A stretch of DNA of 64,000 nt from a virus (IMGVR_UViG_3300044638_003984); one strand, 5' to 3'; positions 762 to 52,694 are shown, numbered from the stretch's first letter. The notes: generated by a model from the letters alone, not told the origin. Made by a program: numbers and translations.

Positions 762-839
762 TGGTCGAGAAGGTAGGATTTGAACCTACGACCTCCTGTT
801 TCCAAAACAGGCGGGGACTCCAGACTCCCCTACTTCTCG
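762..839 (-). tRNA. tRNA-Pro (anticodon UGG), CCA encoded
   Basis: Cloverleaf on reverse complement: acceptor CGAGAAG/CTTCTCG, D-stem GGGG/CCCC, anticodon loop UUUGGAA, T-loop TTCAAAT, A73 then CCA. Confidence 0.8.
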
Positions 840-852
840 AAAAACTTTTGAT

Positions 853-928
853 GGAAAAGAGTGGGATTCGAACCCACGTGCTTCTGTTTCCAAAACAGAC
901 GAGATAAGCCAGACTCCTCTATTTCCCG
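853..928 (-). tRNA. tRNA-like second copy with UGG anticodon loop (degenerate acceptor stem, no CCA; possible pseudo-tRNA)
   Basis: Identical anticodon stem-loop UCUGU-UUUGGAA-ACAGA, same D-loop AGTCTGG and T-arm GTGGG-TTCGAAT-CCCAC as the Pro tRNA, but acceptor pairing is only 5-6/7. Confidence 0.4.
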
Positions 929-938
929 ATATTAAATT

Positions 939-1013
939 TGGAGCGGCCAGTCAAATTCGAATTGACACCAAGAGTTTGGAAGACTCCTGTGCTACCGTTA
1001 ACACCATGGCCGC
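939..1013 (-). tRNA. tRNA-Gly (anticodon UCC)
   Basis: Acceptor GCGGCCA/TGGCCGC, anticodon loop CUUCCAA, T-arm GTCAA-TTCGAAT-TTGAC, CCA encoded. Confidence 0.75.
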
Positions 1014-1024
1014 ATATAATCTTT

Positions 1025-1101
1025 TGGAGGGTATGTTGAGAATTGAACTCAATCTGAGAGATTCACAGTCTCCCGTGCAAAACCTTAAACACTTCATACC
1101 C
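1025..1101 (-). tRNA. tRNA-His (anticodon GUG)
   Basis: Acceptor GGGTATG/CATACCC, anticodon stem GGAGA/TCTCT with loop CUGUGAA, T-loop TTCAATT, CCA encoded. Confidence 0.7.
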
Positions 1102-1107
1102 AAACTT

Positions 1108-1200
1108 TGGTGCTCCCACCAGGATTCGAACCTGGACCGTGCTCTAATCAGGAGCGAACAGCTTATAAGGCTGCCGTGCTTACCATTACACCATAGGAGC
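1108..1200 (-). tRNA. Atypical 93-nt tRNA with anticodon UAU (AUA-decoding, Ile2-like) and a long type-II-like variable arm, discriminator A73
   Basis: Acceptor GCTCCTA/TGGGAGC, D-arm GTGT-AATGGTAA-GCAC, anticodon stem GCAGC/GCTGT with loop CUUAUAA, 22-nt variable region forming hairpin GCTC-CTGATTA-GAGC, T-arm CCAGG-TTCGAAT-CCTGG, CCA encoded. Confidence 0.55.
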
Positions 1201-1207
1201 AAATTTT

Positions 1208-1281
1208 TGGCTCTCCCGTTCGGATTCGAACCGAAATCGACGGTTTTGGAGACCGTAATGTTACCATTACACCACAGGAGT
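1208..1281 (-). tRNA. tRNA-Trp (anticodon CCA)
   Basis: Anticodon stem ACGGT/ACCGT with loop CUCCAAA, D-stem GTGT/ACAT, T-arm TTCGG-TTCGAAT-CCGAA, CCA encoded; 1:72 A-A mismatch. Confidence 0.7.
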
Positions 1282-1481
1282 ATTATTATTTATAGAACTC
1301 TTTGAGAGACCAGACCTCGAACCTGGATCAGTTAGCTTTGAACTAGCACCCAATTAGTGCCCTGGTTTTTCCTTGTTAAACTATCTCTCGAAATTTAAAT
1401 TAATCAGTATGGATTAATAAGCTATCTTTTTCATCCAATCTTTTCATCTGCTTACTAGATGTTGGACCTACTGATTAAAGT

Positions 1482-1563
1482 TGGTTGCGGAGGTAGGATT
1501 TGAACCTTTTGAGACGTCCTCTTGGTTATGAGCCAAGCGAGCTGACCGCTGCTCTACTCCACA
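1482..1563 (-). tRNA. tRNA-Met/Ile2-like (anticodon CAU), 82 nt with weak T-stem
   Basis: Acceptor TGTGGAG/CTCCGCA plus A73-CCA, D-arm GAGC-AGCGGTCA-GCTC, perfect anticodon stem CTTGG/CCAAG with loop CUCAUAA; T-stem only 3 bp and an extra variable segment containing GACGTC. Confidence 0.5.
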
Positions 1564-1568
1564 ACAAT

Positions 1569-1886
1569 TTAATACGAACTAAACGAAACACTCATTCTTT
1601 CGAAATCAACTTCTTCTGGATTGATTTGTGAAAGATCGAATCCTTCAACTTCAAAAACCTTTTCGGTCAATGTATGTTCCATTCCACAAGATCCATTACA
1701 AGAACAACCTGAGGAATAGCACCACAAAATCTTTCCTTCCGAATTAACTCCAATTCCTTCATAGTCATGGTGGCCGTAACCGTGTTCTTCGTTACAAATT
1801 TCTTTTACAATAACGCATTCCTCATCATCGAATGAAGACTTTGGTAGTGTATTGTAATTTTCAACAACATATTTAATGATATCCAT
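1569..1886 (-). CDS. hypothetical Cys-rich small protein embedded in tRNA array
   Basis: ORF-track ORF of 105 aa with a CYSSGCSCNGSCG cluster; sits between tRNA genes. Confidence 0.45.
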   Translation of the reverse strand: MDIIKYVVENYNTLPKSSFDDEECVIVKEICNEEHGYGHHDYEGIGVNSEGKILWCYSSGCSCNGSCGMEHTLTEKVFEVEGFDLSQINPEEVDFERMSVSFSSY

Positions 1887-1904
1887 TATTCCTCACAAAT
1901 TTTA

Positions 1905-1992
1905 TGGTGGAAGCCGTGAGATTTGAACTCACAATCCCCTTGGGGAAATGGTTTTACAGACCACCGCAGCTAACCGTATCTGCCTGACTTCC
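1905..1992 (-). tRNA. tRNA-Tyr (anticodon GUA), type II
   Basis: Acceptor GGAAGTC/GGCTTCC, anticodon stem GTGGT/ACCAT with loop CUGUAAA, long variable arm with CCCC/GGGG stem, T-arm GTGAG-TTCAAAT-CTCAC, A73-CCA. Confidence 0.8.
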
Positions 1993-1993
1993 A

Positions 1994-2149
1994 TTAATCT
2001 TTTCTAAAAACAAACTCAGTACAATCGCAAGTTAAACATTTCTTTTTGGTGTTTGGTATAATTTTACCACAATCACCTATTGGATATTTATGATCTTTTC
2101 TTTCATGACCGCATATACATGGATCATATTTAGTGCAATTAACTATCAT
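1994..2149 (-). CDS. hypothetical small Cys/His-rich (zinc-ribbon-like) protein
   Basis: The ORF-track ORF 1994-2218 overlaps tRNA-Glu; trimmed to the internal Met (MIVNCTKYDPCICGHERKDH...CLTCDC). Confidence 0.35.
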   Translation of the reverse strand: MIVNCTKYDPCICGHERKDHKYPIGDCGKIIPNTKKKCLTCDCTEFVFRKD

Positions 2150-2188
2150 AGATATACTATAACGTATTTTAGTTTGCTTGTCAATATT

Positions 2189-2265
2189 TGGTATGGTCGA
2201 CGGGATTTGAACCCGCAATCCCCACCTTGAAAGGGTGGTGGCTTAACCAATTTGCCTACGACCAT
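2189..2265 (-). tRNA. tRNA-Glu (anticodon UUC)
   Basis: Acceptor ATGGTCG/CGACCAT, anticodon stem CCACC/GGTGG with loop CUUUCAA, T-arm GCGGG-TTCAAAT-CCCGT, A73-CCA. Confidence 0.75.
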
Positions 2266-2283
2266 ATATGTTTAAATATTTTT

Positions 2284-2361
2284 GGTGGCTCCGCCCGGAT
2301 TCGAACCGGGATCTTATGCTCTTCAGGCATATGCTGCATACCAATCCAGCTACACAGAGCC
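2284..2361 (-). tRNA. tRNA-Phe (anticodon GAA)
   Basis: Acceptor GGCTCTG/CGGAGCC, anticodon stem TATGC/GCATA with loop CUGAAGA, T-arm CCCGG-TTCGAAT-CCGGG, A73-CCA; D-arm pairing imperfect. Confidence 0.65.
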
Positions 2362-2459
2362 ATTAAAATTTTGCGCTTCTCAGTGGATTTCACTATAGTT
2401 CCGAATCTTGACTAGATACCTTGAGCTCAGTATCAATCGCACGTCTATCACTAAGAATT

Positions 2460-2533
2460 TGGTGGAATCTGTCAGAATCGAACTGACATCGCCTGAATGC
2501 AAATCAGGAGTTTTCCCATTAAACTAAGACCCC
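2460..2533 (-). tRNA. tRNA-Ala (anticodon UGC)
   Basis: Acceptor GGGGTCT/AGATTCC with G3:U70 wobble, D-arm GTTT-AATGGGA-AAAC, anticodon stem CCTGA/TCAGG with loop UUUGCAU, T-arm GTCAG-TTCGATT-CTGAC, CCA. Confidence 0.7.
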
Positions 2534-2538
2534 AAAAG

Positions 2539-2612
2539 TGGAGGTTGATTGTAGAATTGAACACCAGATTTTCCGTAGACAACGGAAGGTTTTACCACTA
2601 AACTAACGAACC
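2539..2612 (-). tRNA. tRNA-Asp (anticodon GUC)
   Basis: Acceptor GGTTCGT/ATCAACC, D-arm GTTT-AGTGGTA-AAAC, anticodon stem TTCCG/CGGAA with loop UUGUCUA; T-stem has 2 mismatches. Confidence 0.55.
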
Positions 2613-2629
2613 AACTTACTACATTATTT

Positions 2630-2658
2630 AGTATACTTCTTTTAGAACATTTCGTCAA
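2630..2658 (-). promoter_or_regulatory. sigma70-like promoter (TTGACG-17-TATACT) upstream of tRNA-Asp
   Basis: The reverse complement reads TTGACGaaatgttctaaaagaagTATACT. Confidence 0.5.
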
Positions 2659-2664
2659 ACTCTT

Positions 2665-2838
2665 TTACCATTTTGTTAAAGAAAAAAGAACGATACTACC
2701 ATCACGATCAATACCAAACTGCATATCTTTGAATGTAAAGAACCACACTTCAAACAGATTTGAGTATTCAAGATCTGGAATCACTTCAGATAAACCAATT
2801 TCTTGAAGAGAAGAAATTACATCGTCATTAGGTTTCAT
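2665..2838 (-). CDS. hypothetical 57-aa protein (not in ORF track)
   Basis: ATG preceded by AAGGA Shine-Dalgarno at ~7 nt; translates MKPNDDVISSLQEIGLSEVIPDLEYSNLFEVWFFTFKDMQFGIDRDGSIVLFSLTKW. Confidence 0.35.
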   Translation of the reverse strand: MKPNDDVISSLQEIGLSEVIPDLEYSNLFEVWFFTFKDMQFGIDRDGSIVLFSLTKW

Positions 2839-2858
2839 AATTATCCTTTATTATAACT

Positions 2859-2932
2859 TGGAGCACTGTGATGGAATCGAACCATCGTTAACTGTTTTGC
2901 AGACAGTTACCTAGCCTCTCGGACAACAGTGC
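2859..2932 (-). tRNA. tRNA-Cys (anticodon GCA)
   Basis: Perfect acceptor GCACTGT/ACAGTGC, anticodon stem ACTGT/ACAGT with loop CUGCAAA, T-arm GATGG-TTCGATT-CCATC, CCA. Confidence 0.75.
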
Positions 2933-2942
2933 AAAAATTGTT

Positions 2943-3017
2943 TGGTGGGATCGGTGAGGCTCGAACTCACAACTCCAGACTTAAAAGGTCTGTACTCTAC
3001 CATTGAGTTACGATCCC
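2943..3017 (-). tRNA. tRNA-Lys (anticodon UUU)
   Basis: Acceptor GGGATCG/CGATCCC, D-arm ACTC-AATGGTA-GAGT, anticodon stem CAGAC/GTCTG with loop CUUUUAA, T-arm GTGAG-TTCGAGC-CTCAC, A73-CCA. Confidence 0.8.
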
Positions 3018-3100
3018 AAAATTTCTTTCATCACTTTCACATTTGATATTCACACAAACATTGAACCAACCTGACCATCAGTTTTGGATACTTAAAATTA

Positions 3101-3186
3101 TGGAGGAGGATGATAGCATCGAACTATTATCCCTAGAGATACTACGGTTTTCAAGACCGTGCGGGGAGCCAACCCCAGCATCCTCC
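3101..3186 (-). tRNA. tRNA-Ser (anticodon UGA), type II
   Basis: Acceptor GGAGGAT/ATCCTCC, anticodon stem ACGGT/ACCGT with loop CUUGAAA, long variable arm, CCA. Confidence 0.7.
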
Positions 3187-3192
3187 AATATT

Positions 3193-3267
3193 TGGCTCCC
3201 CGGGCAGGACTCGAACCTACAACATCCTGGTTAACAGCCAAGCGCTCTACCATTGAGCTACCGAGGA
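3193..3267 (-). tRNA. tRNA-Asn (anticodon GUU)
   Basis: Acceptor TCCTCGG/CCGGGGA, D-arm GCTC-AATGGTA-GAGC, anticodon stem CTTGG/CCAGG with loop CUGUUAA, T-arm GTAGG-TTCGAGT-CCTGC, G73-CCA. Confidence 0.75.
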
Positions 3268-6354: not shown

Positions 6355-6603
6355 ATGTCTCACAACGAAACTGTAAATTATCTTGTACTCCAGGGCTGGG
6401 AGTATGATGCGAATGCTGGTGATGGCTTCGCTTTTCGACCTAATTGGTATGATGAGGATATCGATGAACAAGAATGGTTCACTATTGACCAAGCTCTTGA
6501 AATCGAAAAGATTAATGATCCAGAATCTTATCGAGAATATGATATGGTTCAGAATCTGAATTCTAGATACGCTTGTATGTTCTCTCAATATATGGAGTCG
6601 TAG
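6355..6603 (+). CDS. hypothetical acidic protein (82 aa), TAG stop immediately followed in frame by the next ATG
   Basis: ORF track. Confidence 0.45.
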   Translation: MSHNETVNYLVLQGWEYDANAGDGFAFRPNWYDEDIDEQEWFTIDQALEIEKINDPESYREYDMVQNLNSRYACMFSQYMES

Positions 6604-6819
6604 ATGATTCTCGGTTGGGTTATTACAAAGACTCATTCCTCTGGCGTAACAGAAGTTTACGCCAGAGATTATAAAGAATCATGTTTTGGATATTTTACGC
6701 CGAAGATTTCTGAATCTTATATCTTTCGAAATCGTTCGGCTGCTGAGTTAGAATTTAAGAATTATATAGCTATTGTTTCGGAATCATTTGAACTGGTTCC
6801 GGTAGAAGCTTATATCTAA
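6604..6819 (+). CDS. hypothetical protein (71 aa)
   Basis: ORF track; GGAG ~9 nt upstream. Confidence 0.4.
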   Translation: MILGWVITKTHSSGVTEVYARDYKESCFGYFTPKISESYIFRNRSAAELEFKNYIAIVSESFELVPVEAYI

Positions 6820-22952: not shown

Positions 22953-23930
22953 ATGTCAAAGAAAAAGAATCAATTGCAATTGACTGATAAAAGATCTACA
23001 TTCAAACCAATGAATTATCCTTGGTGTTTTGACGCCTGGAGAACACATGAACAAATGCATTGGTTGTGGACTGAAGTAGAAATGATGCAAGATATTAAAG
23101 ATTGGAAGGAAAAGTTGTCTACTTCAGAAAAGACTTTCTTAACACACATCTTTCGTTTCTTTACACAAGGAGATATTGACGTCTCAGATGGATATGTCAC
23201 AAATTATCTACCATTTTTTCCACAACCAGAAGTTAGAATGATGTTACTTGGATTCGCTGCTCGTGAAGCAATTCACGTTGCCGCTTATTCTCATCTTGTT
23301 GAAACTCTTGGTCTACCAGAAACAACTTATAATGAATTCTTAGAATATACTTCTATGAAAGAGAAGCACGAATATATCTTCTCACATAAGGGCGATGATA
23401 TCAGAAGTATTGCTAAGAATATTGCAGTATTTTCTGCTTTTACAGAAGGAATGCAATTATTCTCTTCATTCGTTATGTTGCTTAATTTTGCAAGACACGG
23501 AAAGATGAAAGGAATGGGTATGATTATCCAATGGTCTCTGTTGGATGAAGATATGCATTCTGAATCAATGATTCGATTATTCAGAACTTTTATCGAAGAG
23601 AATAGAGAGATTTGGGACGATGAGTTGAAATCAGAAATCTATACCATCGCAACTAAAATGGTAGAATTAGAAGATCAATTTATTGATCTGGCATTTAGTA
23701 TGGGTCCGATGGAGAATCTTACTCCCGAAGAAGTTAAGAAATATATTCGCTATATTGCAGATAAGAGATTAATCTCGATGGGTATGAAAGGAATCTTTAA
23801 AGTTAAGAAGAATCCTCTAACTTGGGTCGATGCGATGGTTGGAGTCGGTCACACAAGTTTCTTTGAGAATCGTTCTACAGATTATGCGAAGGGTGCTCTG
23901 ACTGGATCTTGGGAAGATGTTTGGAAATGA
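22953..23930 (+). CDS. nrdB: ribonucleotide reductase small subunit (ferritin-like di-iron)
   Basis: EAIHVAAYSHL and E..H iron-ligand motifs. Confidence 0.85.
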   Translation: MSKKKNQLQLTDKRSTFKPMNYPWCFDAWRTHEQMHWLWTEVEMMQDIKDWKEKLSTSEKTFLTHIFRFFTQGDIDVSDGYVTNYLPFFPQPEVRMMLLGFAAREAIHVAAYSHLVETLGLPETTYNEFLEYTSMKEKHEYIFSHKGDDIRSIAKNIAVFSAFTEGMQLFSSFVMLLNFARHGKMKGMGMIIQWSLLDEDMHSESMIRLFRTFIEENREIWDDELKSEIYTIATKMVELEDQFIDLAFSMGPMENLTPEEVKKYIRYIADKRLISMGMKGIFKVKKNPLTWVDAMVGVGHTSFFENRSTDYAKGALTGSWEDVWK

Positions 23931-24217
23931 CAATTGAAGAATTGATGCAATGGAACGAACAACTAGCAGATGAGATAACAGGTTCGGCTCTATATTATGG
24001 TAACAATACTGCGGAAGATTTTCGAAAGATTATCCTGAAAATTATTAATCAATCGACTCAACGTGGATATTCTCTCGCCAAAATAGAATCTTTCACAGAA
24101 GAACGTTGCTGGTGTCTATCTGCAGAATACGAAGATCATCCTTATAATCCTAATAAAAAAGTTGGAGAAATATGTGAAGTTTGTGGAAACTTAGTTGAGT
24201 CTGAATGGTATTTGTAG
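23909..24217 (+). CDS. hypothetical small protein with CxC / CxxC pairs; ends TAG TAA
   Basis: ORF track. Confidence 0.4.
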   Translation: MGRCLEMTIEELMQWNEQLADEITGSALYYGNNTAEDFRKIILKIINQSTQRGYSLAKIESFTEERCWCLSAEYEDHPYNPNKKVGEICEVCGNLVESEWYL

Positions 24218-49039: not shown

Positions 49040-49264
49040 ATGATAAAGAAATCAATTTACAAAAGAATTATTTGGTCTAGGTCTGGGTCTGAGTCTGGGT
49101 CTAGGTCTTGGTCTGAGTCTGGGTCTTGGTCTTGGTCTTGGTCTTGGTCTGAGTCTTGGTCTGGGTCTAGGTCTTGGTCTGGGTCTGGGTCTTGGTCTTG
49201 GTCTGGGTCTGAGTCTGGGTCTTGGTCTAGGTCTAGGTCTGGGTCTAGGTCTGGGTCTAACTAA
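49040..49264 (+). CDS. putative Ser-X dipeptide-repeat mini-protein, unit 3
   Basis: Same architecture; 74 aa; followed by a 4th header with no array (11-codon ORF). Confidence 0.25.
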   Translation: MIKKSIYKRIIWSRSGSESGSRSWSESGSWSWSWSWSESWSGSRSWSGSGSWSWSGSESGSWSRSRSGSRSGSN

Positions 49265-49346: not shown

Positions 49347-51572
49347 ATGATTATTTCACATTCTCCTGATAATAATGTTGTTCTTTCTTCTATTGATAGA
49401 ACAGATGAATTTAAAATCAAGAATTCTTCGAAAGCATTCTCGATTTTAAGTTCTGGTTTATATGCAAATAAGATTAAAGCGATTATTCGAGAACTTTCTT
49501 GTAATGCTTATGATTCGCATGTGGCAGCAGGAAAGAAGGATATTCCGTTTGACGTACACCTTCCTAATCGTATTGAACCATGGTTCTCTATTCGTGATTA
49601 TGGAACTGGTCTAGATGACACACAAGTGAAATCTATCTATACAACTTATTTCGAATCAACGAAAACGCATTCGAATGAATTCGTTGGTGCACTTGGACTT
49701 GGTTCCAAATCACCATTCAGTTATACTGAAAACTTCAGCATCACTACGATTAAGAACGGTAAGTGTTGGATTTTTAGTGCGTTCGTGAATGAACATGGCA
49801 TCCCTTCCATTGCGTCTATGGGAGTTTCTGATACGACAGAACCGAACGGCGTTGAGATTAAATTTTCAGTAGATAACCAAGACGATATCGTTAAGTTTGT
49901 CACAGAAGCTCCTAACGTATTTATCTGGTTCGAGACACAACCAAATATCTCCGGTAATAGAGAGTATACATTATCTTTCGATTACGTCGTTAAAAGAGAA
50001 AAGAATTACGAAGAACAGAATATCATACCAGGAATTCATGTATTATCTACAAGAGGTTATGGTACTAGTAAAGCTCTGATGGGAAATATCTGTTATCCTA
50101 TTGATGTTCCAAACGCAAAAACGAATTTAACGGATAAACTGCATTCTTTACTATCCAATAATCTTGTAATGGAATTCAATATTGGAGAATTAGATTTCCA
50201 AGCTTCTCGAGAAGGTTTGGCTTACACTCCGTTGACTATTTCTTCAATCAAGAATAAACTTCAAAAGTTAAGTGATTCATTGTACTGTATTCTAGATGAA
50301 CAAGCTAAACAACACAATCATAATTCTTGGTTTCTTGCAGATTTCTTAGTTAATAAAAATTCTCTTCCTATTTGGAAGATGACTGTGACAGAATATGTAA
50401 ATAATAATAACTTAAATGTTGTCGCAATTAACAAATACAATAATTTACATGAAATCTATTACAATGTAATTTCTATTTCGCGAGAAAAGTGTTCTGAATT
50501 CAATATTTCAATTAATTCTTTCGAAAAGGATTCGTATTCTGGAAGAACTAGAAGATATGATCTAAATAACTCTGGCATTAATATGTATCAAACATGTTCA
50601 AAATACAAGTTCATTATTAATGATACGACTATTGGTGCTGGAGAAAGATGTAAACGATATATCGATAATCTAGAAACAGGACACAAGATAAAGAAATTTA
50701 TCCTTTTACAGAAAATCGATAAAGATAAAGATATGAATCTTGAAGAATTCTTCAAGTCAATAAGTAATCCACCAGATGATATTATCATAAATGTTTCTAC
50801 CCTTCCGGAATTGGAAAAGAAAAAGAGAACCAAAGATGTAACAGTTGTTAAAATACAAGAAGATAATAGAAAATATTACAATCCAAATTATACTTGGAAA
50901 GAATGTGGTAAATTACAAGATCTAAATAACACGACGAATACCATGTATTATATTCCTCTTTCTGGGTATAATGTTATTTCAAATTACACTACTGACTTTA
51001 AAGGAGTCTATAAATTATTGAAAGAATGTGGTTTTTTTGGACCGATTGGTTCACGTATGACTATTTATGGAATCAGAAAAGGGGATATTGAATCACTTTC
51101 GAATTATCCAAATTGGATAAATATTGAACGTGTTATTATCGATAAATTACAATCCGAAAAAGAATCCATTAAGAATCGAATTTATGCAGATTTGAATATT
51201 GACTGCATCAATAAATTCAAGTATAATAAAAATATATTGGATAAATTGAATGATAATTCTCCATTCAAGAAAGTTGTTCAAGAATTCAATATAACAAATA
51301 ATTCGAAAAACAACAAACCAGGTTCAATTAATTCCTATATGATGTTGGCGAATATATATTCCAACGATAATATCTATAAAGAATTAAAGGAATTCCAGTT
51401 GGCGGCAGAAACTAAAGTGCAAACAATTTTAAATAGATATCCATTATTACGTTATATGGTTGATATTGATTCTTATTTGTTTGAAACAGACAAAAATAGA
51501 TATGATGTATTTGCAGGATACATTAATTTAATTGACGATCAGAAAAAGGAGTTAACATGTTCCCTTACTTAA
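49347..51572 (+). CDS. rIIA: rIIA protein (GHKL-ATPase-like N-terminus)
   Basis: SKAFSILSSGLYANKIKAIIRELSCNAYDSH and FVGALGLGSKSPFSYTENFSITT blocks match T4 rIIA. Confidence 0.9.
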   Translation: MIISHSPDNNVVLSSIDRTDEFKIKNSSKAFSILSSGLYANKIKAIIRELSCNAYDSHVAAGKKDIPFDVHLPNRIEPWFSIRDYGTGLDDTQVKSIYTTYFESTKTHSNEFVGALGLGSKSPFSYTENFSITTIKNGKCWIFSAFVNEHGIPSIASMGVSDTTEPNGVEIKFSVDNQDDIVKFVTEAPNVFIWFETQPNISGNREYTLSFDYVVKREKNYEEQNIIPGIHVLSTRGYGTSKALMGNICYPIDVPNAKTNLTDKLHSLLSNNLVMEFNIGELDFQASREGLAYTPLTISSIKNKLQKLSDSLYCILDEQAKQHNHNSWFLADFLVNKNSLPIWKMTVTEYVNNNNLNVVAINKYNNLHEIYYNVISISREKCSEFNISINSFEKDSYSGRTRRYDLNNSGINMYQTCSKYKFIINDTTIGAGERCKRYIDNLETGHKIKKFILLQKIDKDKDMNLEEFFKSISNPPDDIIINVSTLPELEKKKRTKDVTVVKIQEDNRKYYNPNYTWKECGKLQDLNNTTNTMYYIPLSGYNVISNYTTDFKGVYKLLKECGFFGPIGSRMTIYGIRKGDIESLSNYPNWINIERVIIDKLQSEKESIKNRIYADLNIDCINKFKYNKNILDKLNDNSPFKKVVQEFNITNNSKNNKPGSINSYMMLANIYSNDNIYKELKEFQLAAETKVQTILNRYPLLRYMVDIDSYLFETDKNRYDVFAGYINLIDDQKKELTCSLT

Positions 51573-52318
51573 TTCAAGGTTCTAACATTATTATTGTGAT
51601 TGGGTCGAAGACTCATACAATCAACAAACAACATCTTTCTTATAACAAGATTGTAGATGCCATCAAGACAAGCGATTGGGATACTGTGAAGGATCTCATT
51701 GAACCAAAGAAAGCCATTCTGAAGTATGGTGCTGGGAATATCTCAATCCAAGGTGACAAGATCTTCTGGAAGGATGAGGAGTTCACTAATTATTTATCAG
51801 ATAAGATTGTTTCTATGTTCCAAGAAGGATTTCCAATTGAACCGATGGTTCTATTTATGGAGAATCTAATGAAGAATCCATCGAAGCGTGCAGTTAACGA
51901 ACTGTATGGTTTCTTGGAAAAGGGGAAAATGCCTATTACTTCAGATGGTTGTTTCCTTGCTTACAAGCGTGTCCGTTCTGATTATAAAGACGTACATAGC
52001 GGAACATTCGATAATTCAGTAGGCAAGATCGTTCAGATGGAACGAAATAAAGTAGACGACGACAAGGATCGAACTTGTTCCAGCGGTTTACATTTCTGTT
52101 CTGAAGAATATCTAAAGCATTTCTCTGGTGAACGAATTATGATCTTGAAGATTAATCCACGTGATGTGGTTTCAATTCCTGCAGATTATAATGATTCTAA
52201 GGGTCGATGCTGCCGTTATGAAGTTATCGGAGAACTTGGAGCCGAAACGAATCCTAAGGATGCTTTCCAAGAGCCAGTACAAGATAATGGTATTGGTATC
52301 TGGATTGAAGTTGGGTAA
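51557..52318 (+). CDS. rIIB: rIIB protein
   Basis: MENLMKNPSKRAVNELYGFL, GCFLAYKRVRSDYKDVHSGTFDNSVGKIVQM and CSSGLHFCSEEYLKHF...PRDVVSIPADYNDSKGRCCRYEV blocks match T4 rIIB. Confidence 0.9.
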   Translation: MFPYLIQGSNIIIVIGSKTHTINKQHLSYNKIVDAIKTSDWDTVKDLIEPKKAILKYGAGNISIQGDKIFWKDEEFTNYLSDKIVSMFQEGFPIEPMVLFMENLMKNPSKRAVNELYGFLEKGKMPITSDGCFLAYKRVRSDYKDVHSGTFDNSVGKIVQMERNKVDDDKDRTCSSGLHFCSEEYLKHFSGERIMILKINPRDVVSIPADYNDSKGRCCRYEVIGELGAETNPKDAFQEPVQDNGIGIWIEVG

Positions 52319-52326
52319 AAGATATT

Positions 52327-52401
52327 GCGCTTGTAGCATAATGGTAATGTAGAAGATTCTAAACCTTCGAGATGAGAGTTCGATTCTCTCCAAGCGCACC
52401 A
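52327..52401 (+). tRNA. amber suppressor tRNA (anticodon CUA), 75 nt, CCA encoded
   Basis: Cloverleaf GCGCTTG-TA-GCAT-AATGGTA-ATGT-A-GAAGA-TTCTAAA-CCTTC-GAGAT-GAGAG-TTCGATT-CTCTC-CAAGCGC-A-CCA; anticodon loop positions 34-36 = CTA. Confidence 0.7.
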
Positions 52402-52451
52402 AATTAAAAGAGGAATATATGACATAGAAGACTAAAATTAAGTGTGAATAT

Positions 52452-52673
52452 TTGATTTTTCACTTCAATAAGAAACATCTTGAAGATCCTTCCATTCCAA
52501 TGTGGTCGATCAAAGCAAAAGGTGAAACTTATTATGTGAAGCATGTAGATTGTGCTCTACCATGGAGCACAAAAGAAACTCCTGATAATCCTCATACAAA
52601 AGGATCTATCAAAATCAAAAATTGTACTTTGACAATAGACTATCTAGATAATGCTTATATAACGGGAGAGTAA
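52452..52673 (+). CDS. hypothetical protein; in frame with upstream RBS-ATG-ACA-TAG at 52419 (amber at codon 3)
   Basis: ORF-track ORF starts at TTG. The only strong SD (AAGAGGA, 52408-52414) precedes the ATG at 52419, followed by ACA TAG and then the same reading frame. Confidence 0.4.
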   Translation: MIFHFNKKHLEDPSIPMWSIKAKGETYYVKHVDCALPWSTKETPDNPHTKGSIKIKNCTLTIDYLDNAYITGE

Positions 52674-52694
52674 AATCTCCCGTTTCATTTTTTT
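52663..52694 (+). terminator. intrinsic terminator (CGGGAGA stem, U-rich tail) overlapping the stop codon
   Basis: CGGGAGAG-TAAAA-TCTCCCG then TTTCATTTTTTT. Confidence 0.65.

What the first reader, a model, noticed from the sequence alone, without database searches (positions are those of the whole stretch)
52327..52401. Amber suppressor tRNA (anticodon CUA) encoded on the plus strand right after rIIB
A canonical 75-nt cloverleaf with all stems intact has the anticodon loop UUCUAAA and would read UAG. Several genes in the window end in TAG (for example ThyX, terminase gp17 and gene 23909-24217, the last with a TAA back-up). No essential gene is interrupted by TAG, so this is not wholesale code reassignment. 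Rather it is partial read-through or a regulatory switch, or a defence against hosts using TAG-dependent mechanisms.
Basis: seen in the sequence. Interest (0 to 1): 0.7.

Follow-up and report, generated by a model that had tools for sequence, protein, structure and literature searches.

The report
Suppressor tRNA unlocks its neighbour gene
This phage carries a working-looking tRNA that reads the stop codon TAG, and the gene right next to it has a TAG as its third codon, so the tRNA appears to act as a private key for one locked gene; the same pairing recurs in hundreds of phages and seems not to have been described.

Summary
The tRNA is real: 52327-52401 (+), anticodon CTA, Rfam 64 bits, CCA encoded. 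It is not a sign of recoding or of general read-through.

It continues in frame into a conserved 81-residue all-beta protein. No other start codon precedes conserved, structured residues.

In about 170 related phage loci (102 distinct sequence contexts) this gene always has TAG, never TAA or TGA, at codon 2-6. The codons after the TAG show coding periodicity. A CTA tRNA usually lies upstream on the same strand and is often the only tRNA in 20 kb.

A second client family, PTH2-type peptidyl-tRNA hydrolase, has the same architecture in metagenomic and cultured phages: Phosso, fHe-Yen9-04, RsoM2USA, XacN1, GAP32 and ME3. Atu_ph07 has an opal (TCA) suppressor, and its orthologue carries TGA instead of TAG.

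Best reading: a dedicated suppressor-tRNA and early-stop translational gate. It probably answers the published "orphan suppressor" question for XacN1-like phages.

Still unknown: the inserted amino acid and what the gate is for. An apparent TAG=Gln signal was a gene-caller artefact.

The parts
51557..52318 (+). rIIB gene. Its stop codon lies 8 nt before the tRNA, so it is probably part of the same transcription unit.
   Evidence: tblastn matches rIIB of Xoo-sp13, XacN1, PA5oct and T4-like phages at 45-52% identity. JGI assigns Pfam PF26926.
52327..52401 (+). Amber suppressor tRNA with anticodon CUA at 52359-52361. It is a class I tRNA with G1-C72, C2-G71, G3-C70, A73, U33, A37, A38, an A31.C39 mismatch and an encoded CCA.
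   Evidence: Searches identify it. Searches give the family signature. One search shows covariation. Searches show it is identical in 9 further lake-metagenome contigs apart from a 3-nt D-loop indel.
52408..52414 (+). Shine-Dalgarno sequence AAGAGGA serving the ATG at 52419. It lies 6 nt after the tRNA 3' end.
   Evidence: Read directly from the sequence. It was the only SD+ATG+early-TAG+long-ORF hit in the 64-kb window.
52419..52421 (+). True start codon (ATG) of the client gene.
52425..52427 (+). In-frame TAG at codon 3 of the client gene. This is the codon the neighbouring tRNA is proposed to decode.
   Evidence: It is invariant (entropy 0) in 83 aligned distinct homologues and is never TAA or TGA.
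52419..52673 (+). Client gene, reading M-T-[TAG]-K-T-K-I-K-C-E-Y-L-I-F-H-F-N..., 84 codons plus a TAA stop. It encodes a small all-beta protein of unknown function. JGI called only 52452-52673 from a TTG start, which cuts off the conserved Cys and part of the first beta-strand.
52661..52694 (+). Intrinsic-terminator-like hairpin AACGGGAGA-GTAAAA-TCTCCCGTT followed by a T-run, overlapping the client's stop codon. It closes the rIIB-tRNA-client unit.
   Evidence: This is a consensus match only.

Best explanation
The tRNA and the gene next to it form a matched pair. The client mRNA has a strong Shine-Dalgarno sequence and an ATG, but its third codon is UAG. Without the phage's tRNA(CUA), release factor 1 ends translation after a dipeptide and no protein is made. 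With the tRNA, UAG is decoded and the 84-residue beta protein is produced. The stop sits at codon 2-6 in this gene family (2-7 when the PTH2-like client is included), so a failed attempt costs almost nothing and leaves no truncated protein. A ribosome waiting at that codon still covers the start site, so output should follow the suppressor-to-release-factor ratio. The device is therefore a translational lock, or a gauge of suppressor activity, on one or two client genes: this beta protein and, in many relatives, a PTH2-type peptidyl-tRNA hydrolase that is often in the same operon. Shown by sequence evidence: the architecture, its conservation, its specificity, coding selection right after the stop, and stop/anticodon covariation. 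Inferred: that decoding happens in vivo, and that the purpose is gating, timing or dosage coupling. The PTH2 client suggests a link to peptidyl-tRNA recycling or ribosome rescue. The inserted amino acid is unknown.
For: (1) In the window, SD AAGAGGA, ATG 52419, ACA and TAG 52425 are in frame with the conserved ORF. The only later start, TTG 52452, lies after the conserved Cys and inside predicted strand 2-14. (2) In 88 of 90 loci in the first sets the interrupting stop is TAG at codon 2-5. A second IMG/VR scan gave 74 of 76. RHph_I1_18 has it at codon 6. Many loci have no ATG, GTG or TTG between the TAG and the conserved core. (3) Specificity: in 1.72 Mb, the SD+ATG+<=5 codons+stop+>=60-codon-ORF pattern occurs 175 times with TAG. 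Of these 165 are this family, 18 use TAA and 11 use TGA, with none of the TAA or TGA cases in this family. In the window it occurs once. (4) Coding periodicity starts right after the TAG: entropy is 0.47, 0.37 and 1.15 at codon positions 1, 2 and 3, and the TAG is invariant in 83 distinct sequences. (5) Linkage: a tRNA(CTA) lies within 2.5 kb in 62 of 88 loci and within 10 kb in 59 of 74. It is almost always upstream on the same strand and is often the only tRNA in 20 kb. (6) The second client family, PTH2-like (Pfam PF01981, E about 1e-20), has the same start architecture in 5 of 5 IMG/VR loci. It also appears in cultured Phosso, fHe-Yen9-04, RsoM2USA, GAP32, ME3 and XacN1. (7) Covariation: Atu_ph07 has a TCA suppressor and TGA at codon 7 of its PTH2 gene. 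Its relative Phosso has TAG at codon 4, and the predicted CTA tRNA was found 4.6 kb upstream. RsoM2USA and XacN1 are reported to have CUA suppressors. (8) The tRNAs are functional by covariation and have the A36-A37-A38 loop typical of efficient UNN readers. (9) The early TAG has a distinct context: +4 is A in 97 of 102 cases against 57 of 165 terminator TAGs, p=2e-25.
Against: There is no experimental evidence of read-through, charging or expression. About a quarter of client loci show no CTA tRNA in the flank examined, although it could lie elsewhere in the genome. Three loci keep the tRNA while the beta gene has no TAG. In L034 and L105 the TAG sits on the tightly coupled upstream PTH2-like gene instead, but L081 is unexplained. 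TAG is still a normal terminator for about 11-14% of genes, so an efficient suppressor should also extend those proteins, and I see no compensation for that. The codon after the stop is ATT in 83 of 102 cases and its third position is unusually conserved. That could mean re-initiation at AUU and not suppression. No CTA suppressor was searched for in GAP32 or ME3. The physiological purpose is inferred only.
Confidence: 0.8

Rival explanations
1. General read-through. The suppressor's main job would be to extend TAG-terminated phage or host proteins or to recode TAG partially across the genome, and the neighbouring TAG gene would be incidental.
For: TAG ends 11 of 80 ORFs in the window and 165 of 1478 long ORFs in related loci, so read-through substrates exist. 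L081 keeps the tRNA with no TAG client visible in its flank.
Against: No other gene in the 64-kb window has an internal or early TAG. The one same-frame TAG junction, at 6601, is an ordinary GGAG-N3-TAG-ATG stop-start junction. TAG terminators show no excess of back-up stops. XacN1's authors read through all 18 of its TAG stops and found nothing. This reading does not explain why one gene family keeps TAG at codon 2-6 in 102 distinct contexts.
Confidence: 0.08
2. Mini-ORF with termination and re-initiation. ATG-NNN-TAG would be a 2-codon leader ORF, and the ribosome would restart at the adjacent AUU or another near-cognate codon. The tRNA would be unrelated.
For: ATT follows the stop in 83 of 102 contexts and is conserved even at its third position. 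TGA-ATT is also seen in Atu_ph07. The architecture resembles lambda bar minigenes (own knowledge).
Against: The window itself has TAG-AAG. Other members have ACT, AAA, AAC, GTA, GTT or TCG after the stop. Re-initiation would work with any stop codon, yet TAA and TGA are never used in the beta family, and the stop type follows the suppressor anticodon (TGA with TCA, TAG with CTA). The tight physical linkage with a CTA tRNA would be left unexplained.
Confidence: 0.07
3. Decay. The gene would be a pseudogene killed by a nonsense mutation and the tRNA a mutated sense tRNA with no function.
For: Gene callers and GenBank annotators routinely skip or truncate these genes.
Against: The TAG is invariant across 83 or more distinct sequences at 56-74% protein identity. 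There is clear coding periodicity downstream and a confident fold. Compensatory changes occur in 14 of 16 tRNA pairs. The pairing is present in at least 9 cultured, viable phages.
Confidence: 0.01
4. The tRNA would be primarily a counter-defence spare or decoy, for example against host anticodon nucleases or tRNA depletion. The early-stop clients would simply exploit its presence as a marker of an infected cell.
For: The clients and their neighbours are tRNA- and translation-related: PTH2, RnlA RNA ligase, CysRS and SerRS flank the Phosso tRNA. Iyer et al. link phage PTH2 to rescue after tRNA cleavage. The RHph suppressor most resembles phage tRNA-Lys genes.
Against: A CUA anticodon cannot replace any sense tRNA. 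There is no direct evidence for this idea. It is compatible with the best explanation and does not exclude it.
Confidence: 0.04

Closest known systems
Genome-wide TAG-to-Gln recoding ('code 15') with phage-encoded suppressor tRNAs in crAss-like, Lak and other gut phages (Borges et al. bioRxiv 10.1101/2021.08.26.457843; Peters et al. PMC9523058; Yutin et al. PMC7886860)
   Same: A phage-encoded tRNA(CUA) decodes in-frame TAG in phage genes inside a standard-code host. It has been proposed to act as a translational regulator.
   Different: In those phages tens to hundreds of TAGs are spread through late and structural genes, and TAG is largely given up as a stop. Here there is one TAG in 64 kb, it always falls in the first few codons of one or two specific small genes, and TAG remains a normal terminator. 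Gln identity is not supported here.
Orphan suppressor tRNAs reported in T4-related jumbo phages (XacN1 PMC5852040; RsoM2USA PMC8504454; Atu_ph07 PMC6102473)
   Same: The kind of tRNA and the phage supergroup are the same. The window's rIIB is closest to these phages.
   Different: Those papers found no target, or assumed 'several potential genes'. I find an SD-ATG-early-stop client, PTH2-like, in each of them, and its stop type matches the anticodon.
Synthetic suppressor-tRNA feed-forward 'leak dampener' (PMC7969014)
   Same: The logic is the same: amber codon(s) early in a gene plus a co-expressed suppressor tRNA, so that protein appears only when both are present.
   Different: That circuit is engineered. 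This one is natural, conserved, and has the tRNA and client in one apparent transcription unit.
prfB (RF2) autoregulation through an early in-frame UGA (own knowledge of the E. coli system)
   Same: An in-frame stop near the 5' end of a gene acts as a gauge of termination efficiency and sets the output of a translation-related protein.
   Different: prfB escapes by +1 frameshifting and senses RF2. Here escape is by a dedicated suppressor tRNA, in frame, and would sense the tRNA(CUA)-to-RF1 ratio.
Selenocysteine and pyrrolysine recoding
   Same: A dedicated tRNA reads a stop codon in a small, defined set of genes.
   Different: There is no SECIS- or PYLIS-like requirement and no pyl or sel genes. 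The tRNA has a canonical body (G18G19, T-loop GTTCGAT, 5-nt variable loop). ARAGORN's 'tRNA-Pyl' label reflects only the anticodon.
Lambda bar minigenes (SD-AUG-AUA-stop; own knowledge)
   Same: A strong SD, an ATG, one or two codons and then a stop.
   Different: bar minigenes have no downstream in-frame coding sequence and act by peptidyl-tRNA drop-off. Here the frame continues into a conserved protein. The link with peptidyl-tRNA hydrolase clients is still intriguing.

Membership tests
Canonical elongator tRNA (Rfam RF00005) | Cloverleaf with conserved D-loop GG, T-loop GTTCRANYC, U33 and a 7-nt anticodon loop | tested here: met
   64 bits against a threshold of 29. ARAGORN calls it. AATGGTAA and GTTCGATTC are visible in the sequence.
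Canonical elongator tRNA (Rfam RF00005) | Helices maintained by compensatory substitutions among homologues | tested here: met
   14 of 16 pairs show double changes in 36 sequences.
Amber suppressor tRNA | Anticodon CUA in register (positions 34-36), flanked by U33 and a purine at 37 | tested here: met
   U33 in 73 of 74, A37 in 74 of 74, A38 in 72 of 74.
Amber suppressor tRNA | An in-frame UAG that needs decoding exists in the same genome | tested here: met
   TAG at 52425-52427, codon 3 of the adjacent conserved gene.
Amber suppressor tRNA | Is aminoacylated and inserts an amino acid at UAG in vivo | not testable with these tools
   This needs tRNA charging assays, proteomics or reporters.
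tRNA-Pyl (ARAGORN's label) | Atypical pylT body: 3-nt variable loop, short D-loop lacking G18G19, 6-bp anticodon stem | tested here: not met
   The tRNA has a canonical D-loop with GG, a 5-nt variable loop and a 4-5 bp anticodon stem.
tRNA-Gln-derived suppressor (as in code-15 phages) | Bacterial tRNA-Gln acceptor signature (U1-A72, G73), or homologues with Gln at the TAG site | tested here: not met
   The family has G1-C72 in 72 of 74 and A73 in 62 of 74. RHph_I1_18's own tRNA-Gln has U1-A72 and G73, and its suppressor does not. The 'Q' in database homologues is a TAG=Gln gene-calling artefact.
Genome-wide TAG recoding (code 15) | Many in-frame TAGs in many genes | tested here: not met
   One gene in 64 kb.
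Genome-wide TAG recoding (code 15) | TAG no longer used as a terminator | tested here: not met
   TAG ends 11 of 80 ORFs in the window and 165 of 1478 in related loci.
Dedicated suppressor / early-stop client pair (class proposed here) | SD + ATG + 1-6 sense codons + stop codon + conserved in-frame ORF with no earlier usable start | tested here: met
   Window. Family.
Dedicated suppressor / early-stop client pair (class proposed here) | The stop type matches the anticodon of the phage's suppressor | tested here: met
   TAG with CTA in the window and in about 120 loci. TGA with TCA in Atu_ph07, against TAG with CTA in Phosso.
Dedicated suppressor / early-stop client pair (class proposed here) | The segment just after the stop is under coding selection | tested here: met
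   Entropy 0.47, 0.37 and 1.15 by codon position.
PTH2 peptidyl-tRNA hydrolase (second client family) | A Pfam PF01981 match above threshold somewhere in the window | tested here: not met
   tblastn with 7 PTH2-like queries finds nothing in the window. The family is present in relatives, so in this phage it is absent or lies outside the 64 kb.
Lambda bar-type minigene | A short ORF that ends at the stop, with no conserved in-frame continuation | tested here: not met
   There is a conserved in-frame protein with coding periodicity.

The most novel reading that the evidence does not exclude
Many T4-related and jumbo phages carry a previously unrecognised regulatory device. A private suppressor tRNA gates translation of a small translation-quality-control module, made of a PTH2 peptidyl-tRNA hydrolase and/or this beta protein. 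The gate is a single stop codon placed in the first few codons, whose type covaries with the tRNA's anticodon. The early stop would measure the suppressor-to-release-factor balance, or the integrity and charging of the tRNA. The phage could then switch on ribosome-rescue or counter-defence functions only in a defined state of the infected cell. This would explain the 'orphan' suppressor tRNAs of XacN1, RsoM2USA, Atu_ph07, fHe-Yen9-04 and their relatives. It would also reveal a set of genes that current annotation pipelines systematically miss.
Probability: 0.45. Interest if true: 0.9.

Novelty: new variant of a known kind. Interest (0 to 1): 0.8.

Why it matters
Phage suppressor tRNAs have been explained either as agents of genome-wide recoding, as in gut crAss-like and Lak phages, or left unexplained. 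Authors of several jumbo-phage genome papers looked for targets and found none.

This window points to a third use: one tRNA and one stop codon at the very start of one or two specific genes.

If confirmed, it would do four things:
- Answer a stated open question for several cultured phages.
- Show that gene callers and GenBank records systematically omit or truncate these clients. Nothing is annotated under the match in 13 of 35 cultured-phage records.
- Provide a natural counterpart of synthetic suppressor-gated circuits.
- Connect suppressor tRNAs to peptidyl-tRNA hydrolase and ribosome rescue, a link that can be tested directly in Yersinia, Serratia, Acinetobacter, Ralstonia, Xanthomonas and Rhizobium phages.

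Tried and rejected
(1) TAG=Gln. Database homologues read 'MSQIEY...', with Q where others have the stop. I first took this as evidence for Gln. The DNA shows TAG there, and the collection's gene caller had used a TAG=Gln table, so I retracted it.

(2) A second TAG-split gene at 6355-6819. This is an ordinary GGAG-N3-TAG-ATG stop-start junction between two genes.

(3) Origin of the suppressor from one sense isoacceptor. Nearest neighbours are only 63-80% identical and are scattered over Trp, Thr, Arg, Lys and others. The RHph tRNA's best hits are phage tRNA-Lys, and the Atu_ph07 opal tRNA resembles tRNA-Trp. No firm assignment is possible.

(5) Back-up stops after terminator TAGs. There is no enrichment.

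(6) Other early-TAG hits. GIY-YIG-like homing endonucleases begin 'MS*IEYS...', but they have internal Met starts. They look like insertions that copied the client's 5' end.

(7) Locating Phosso's suppressor by synteny with Atu_ph07 failed at both the DNA and protein level. It was found by scanning 49 kb around the client.

(8) A megablast of the region against cultured phages found no match.

Full report
OBSERVATION. ARAGORN finds 18 tRNAs in the window. Seventeen form a minus-strand cluster at 762-3267. One stands alone on the plus strand at 52327-52401 with anticodon CTA. Rfam's tRNA model scores it 64 bits. It folds as a cloverleaf, but the anticodon stem has an A31.C39 mismatch. The 3' CCA is encoded. 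It starts 8 nt after the stop of rIIB (51557-52318), which was confirmed by tblastn and by Pfam PF26926. The phage is a novel T4-related virus with 34% GC, and megablast finds no match among cultured phages.

Directly after the tRNA the sequence reads AAAAGAGGAATAT ATG ACA TAG AAG ACT AAA ATT AAG TGT GAA TAT TTG ATT TTT CAC TTC AAT. A good Shine-Dalgarno (52408-52414) serves the ATG at 52419. Codon 3 is TAG (52425-52427). The frame then stays open to the TAA at 52671-52673. JGI called this gene from the TTG at 52452, giving 73 aa (P0001). Homologues, however, have 7-12 further N-terminal residues with a conserved Cys three residues before the (V/I)FHFNKKH core. The window encodes that Cys upstream of the TTG. 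There is no ATG, GTG or TTG between the TAG and that TTG. An AlphaFold model built from a 50-sequence alignment is confident (pLDDT 92.6), and its first beta-strand spans residues 2-14, which includes TKIKCEY. The only sensible start is therefore the ATG before the TAG.

CONSERVATION AND SPECIFICITY. Nine further lake-metagenome contigs carry the same rIIB-tRNA-gene arrangement. They are identical except for a 3-nt D-loop indel. Eighty more distant IMG/VR loci, at 62-74% protein identity, were then examined. In 78 of them the gene begins SD-ATG, then 1-4 sense codons, then a stop, and the stop is always TAG. A second scan with 10-kb flanks gave 74 of 76. In all there are 102 distinct sequence contexts.

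Across 1.72 Mb of these loci I counted the architecture SD+ATG+<=5 codons+stop+>=60-codon ORF. It occurs 175 times with TAG, and 165 of those are this family. It occurs 18 times with TAA and 11 times with TGA, never in this family. In the 64-kb window it occurs once.

In 83 aligned distinct sequences the TAG is invariant. The nine codons after it show clear coding periodicity, with entropy 0.47, 0.37 and 1.15 at positions 1, 2 and 3. No periodicity is seen upstream of the ATG. That segment is therefore translated in this frame.

LINKAGE WITH THE tRNA. A tRNA(CTA) lies within 2.5 kb in 62 of 88 loci and within 10 kb in 59 of 74. It is nearly always upstream on the same strand, and in many 20-kb loci it is the only tRNA.

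Seventy-four distinct CTA tRNAs were collected. They share:
- G1-C72 in 72 of 74
- C2-G71 in 66 of 74
- A73 in 62, and G73 in 11
- U33, with A37 in 74 of 74 and A38 in 72 of 74
- an encoded CCA
- a usually non-Watson-Crick 31-39 pair: C.A in 31, A.C in 11, U.G in 14

Stems are kept by compensatory changes in 14 of 16 pairs. These are working tRNAs and not relics.

A SECOND CLIENT AND THE COVARIATION TEST. L034 and L105 are two loci whose beta gene lacks the TAG but which still carry the tRNA. In both, the gene immediately upstream starts AGGAG..ATG NNN TAG AT(A/T). In L034 its stop lies 1 nt from the beta gene's ATG. That upstream gene encodes a PTH2-type peptidyl-tRNA hydrolase (Pfam PF01981). 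All five IMG/VR loci of this family begin the same way, and four have a CTA tRNA 137-7547 nt upstream.

Cultured phages show the same architecture:
- Sinorhizobium phage Phosso: ATG AAG TAT TAG
- Yersinia phage fHe-Yen9-04: ATG TCT CAC TAG ATT, in an unannotated gap 3.4 kb from its annotated tRNA-Sup-CTA
- Ralstonia phage RsoM2USA: ATG TTG TAG ATT, unannotated
- Cronobacter phage GAP32: ATG GCA CAA TAG
- Acinetobacter phage ME3: ATG ACT TAG ATT
- Xanthomonas phage XacN1: AGAGGA-N8-ATG AAG TAG, in frame with annotated ORF364

Where GenBank annotates a start, it cuts into the PTH2 domain, and no other start codon is available.

The sharpest test was Atu_ph07, whose only suppressor is an opal tRNA with anticodon TCA (verified). 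Its PTH2 orthologue has ATG ATT GGC GAA CAC TTT TGA ATT, which is a TGA and not a TAG. I then predicted that its relative Phosso, with an early TAG, should have a CTA tRNA. It does: the tRNA is annotated 'tRNA-Undet', lies 4.6 kb upstream on the same strand, and is the only tRNA in 49 kb. RsoM2USA and XacN1 are reported to carry CUA suppressors. The cultured Rhizobium phage RHph_I1_18 has the beta-protein client with an in-frame TAG at codon 6. That gene is unannotated, and a CTA tRNA lies 36 nt downstream of it. RaK2 and L097/L100 have PTH2-like genes with ordinary starts, so the early stop is not universal in that family.

MECHANISM. The best-supported reading is that the phage tRNA decodes the early stop, so the client is made only when the suppressor is present and competes successfully with the release factor. 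Placing the stop in the first few codons limits the cost of failure to a short peptide of a few residues (a dipeptide in this window). It also keeps the waiting ribosome over the start site, so output should follow suppression efficiency.

The early TAG has its own context. An A follows it in 97 of 102 cases, compared with 57 of 165 for terminator TAGs (p=2e-25). That fits a suppression-prone context, based on my own knowledge of E. coli context effects, although ATT as a restart codon is a rival reading.

In the window, rIIB, the tRNA, the client and a terminator-like hairpin (52661-52684) look like one transcription unit. If so, tRNA processing would free an mRNA with a 17-nt leader; this is inference.

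Why the lock exists is not shown. One client is a peptidyl-tRNA hydrolase, and the other is often in the same operon with it. In Atu_ph07 and Phosso the beta domain forms the C-terminal half of a larger protein two genes downstream of PTH2. RNA ligase and aminoacyl-tRNA synthetase genes lie nearby. All of this points to translation quality control. Iyer et al. proposed ribosome rescue after tRNA cleavage as the role of phage PTH2.

Possible roles are a timer, a feed-forward dose coupling of rescue capacity to suppressor activity, or a sensor of tRNA integrity. I cannot choose between them.

WHICH AMINO ACID. This is unknown. The tRNA body is not Gln-like. A73 and the similarity of the RHph tRNA to phage tRNA-Lys genes hint at Lys. 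In E. coli the 31-39 pair is an identity element that trades Lys acceptance against Gln acceptance in CUA suppressors (PMC1483225), and this family usually has a mismatch there. The residues around the stop are poorly conserved, so the identity of the inserted residue may not matter.

AGAINST GENERAL READ-THROUGH. TAG remains an ordinary terminator: it ends 11 of 80 ORFs in the window and 11% of ORFs in related loci. TAG-terminated ORFs have no closer back-up stops than the others. No other gene in the window is split by TAG.

NOVELTY. Full-text searches found genome-wide TAG recoding in gut phages, reports of orphan suppressors in jumbo phages and a synthetic analogue. They found no description of a conserved early-stop client paired with a phage suppressor tRNA. 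The library is incomplete, so prior description cannot be excluded. I class this as a new variant of a known kind, namely phage suppressor-tRNA-dependent stop-codon decoding, with a distinct architecture and probably a distinct purpose.

Noticed in passing
window 762-3267 (- strand): A cluster of 17 tRNA genes. It includes two unusually long calls, tRNA-Ile(tat) of 93 nt at 1108-1200 and tRNA-Asn(att) of 91 nt at 1301-1391, and two tRNA-Pro(tgg). The long ones may carry insertions or introns, or may be miscalls. Rfam supports 1111-1200 at 62.9 bits but not 1301-1391.
   Followed up: no
Protein collection entries P0011, P0014, P0016 (loci L173-L177): The public protein collection translated these contigs with a TAG=Gln table, so homologues show a spurious 'Q' at the stop position. 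'translates_to_query: no' is the warning sign. This can mislead any inference about what a suppressor inserts.
   Followed up: yes
L013, L022, L068, L069, L129, L130 (and L037-L042 with TAA): GIY-YIG-like homing endonuclease genes sit between the suppressor tRNA and the client gene. They begin with a copy of the client's 5' end (MS*IEYS...), as if the endonuclease had inserted at or duplicated the client start.
   Followed up: partly
L001-L009 versus window, tRNA D-loop (window about 52340): There is a strain-level polymorphism: 8 of 10 near-identical contigs have an extra ATA in the suppressor's D-loop (78 versus 75 nt). ARAGORN still calls both forms.
   Followed up: no
Cultured phage records: fHe-Yen9-03/04, Serratia BF, six Erwinia pEa_SNUABM phages, RsoM2USA, K64-1, RHph_I1_18: The early-stop client genes are unannotated or annotated from an internal start in GenBank. 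Nothing is annotated under the PTH2-like match in 13 of 35 records. This is a systematic annotation gap caused by the stop codon.
   Followed up: partly
L179 (Phosso 152-201 kb) and L091 (Atu_ph07): In Phosso the suppressor tRNA is flanked by phage-encoded cysteinyl- and seryl-tRNA synthetase genes, an RNA ligase and queuosine-pathway genes. In both phages the client operon contains a 174-aa protein whose C-terminal half is the beta domain found in the window.
   Followed up: no
window 6355-6819 (+): Two small same-frame ORFs are joined by GGAGTCG-TAG-ATG. It looks like a TAG-split gene but is a normal coupled stop-start junction.
   Followed up: yes
window 49158-49191 (+): A GGTCTGGGTCT-type short tandem repeat lies just upstream of rIIA and was picked up as a terminator-like hairpin.
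   Followed up: no
L081: This locus keeps a CTA tRNA 1.1 kb upstream, but its beta gene has an ordinary start (MIKLACDN) and no early-TAG client was found within the 5-kb locus. It is an unexplained exception.
   Followed up: no
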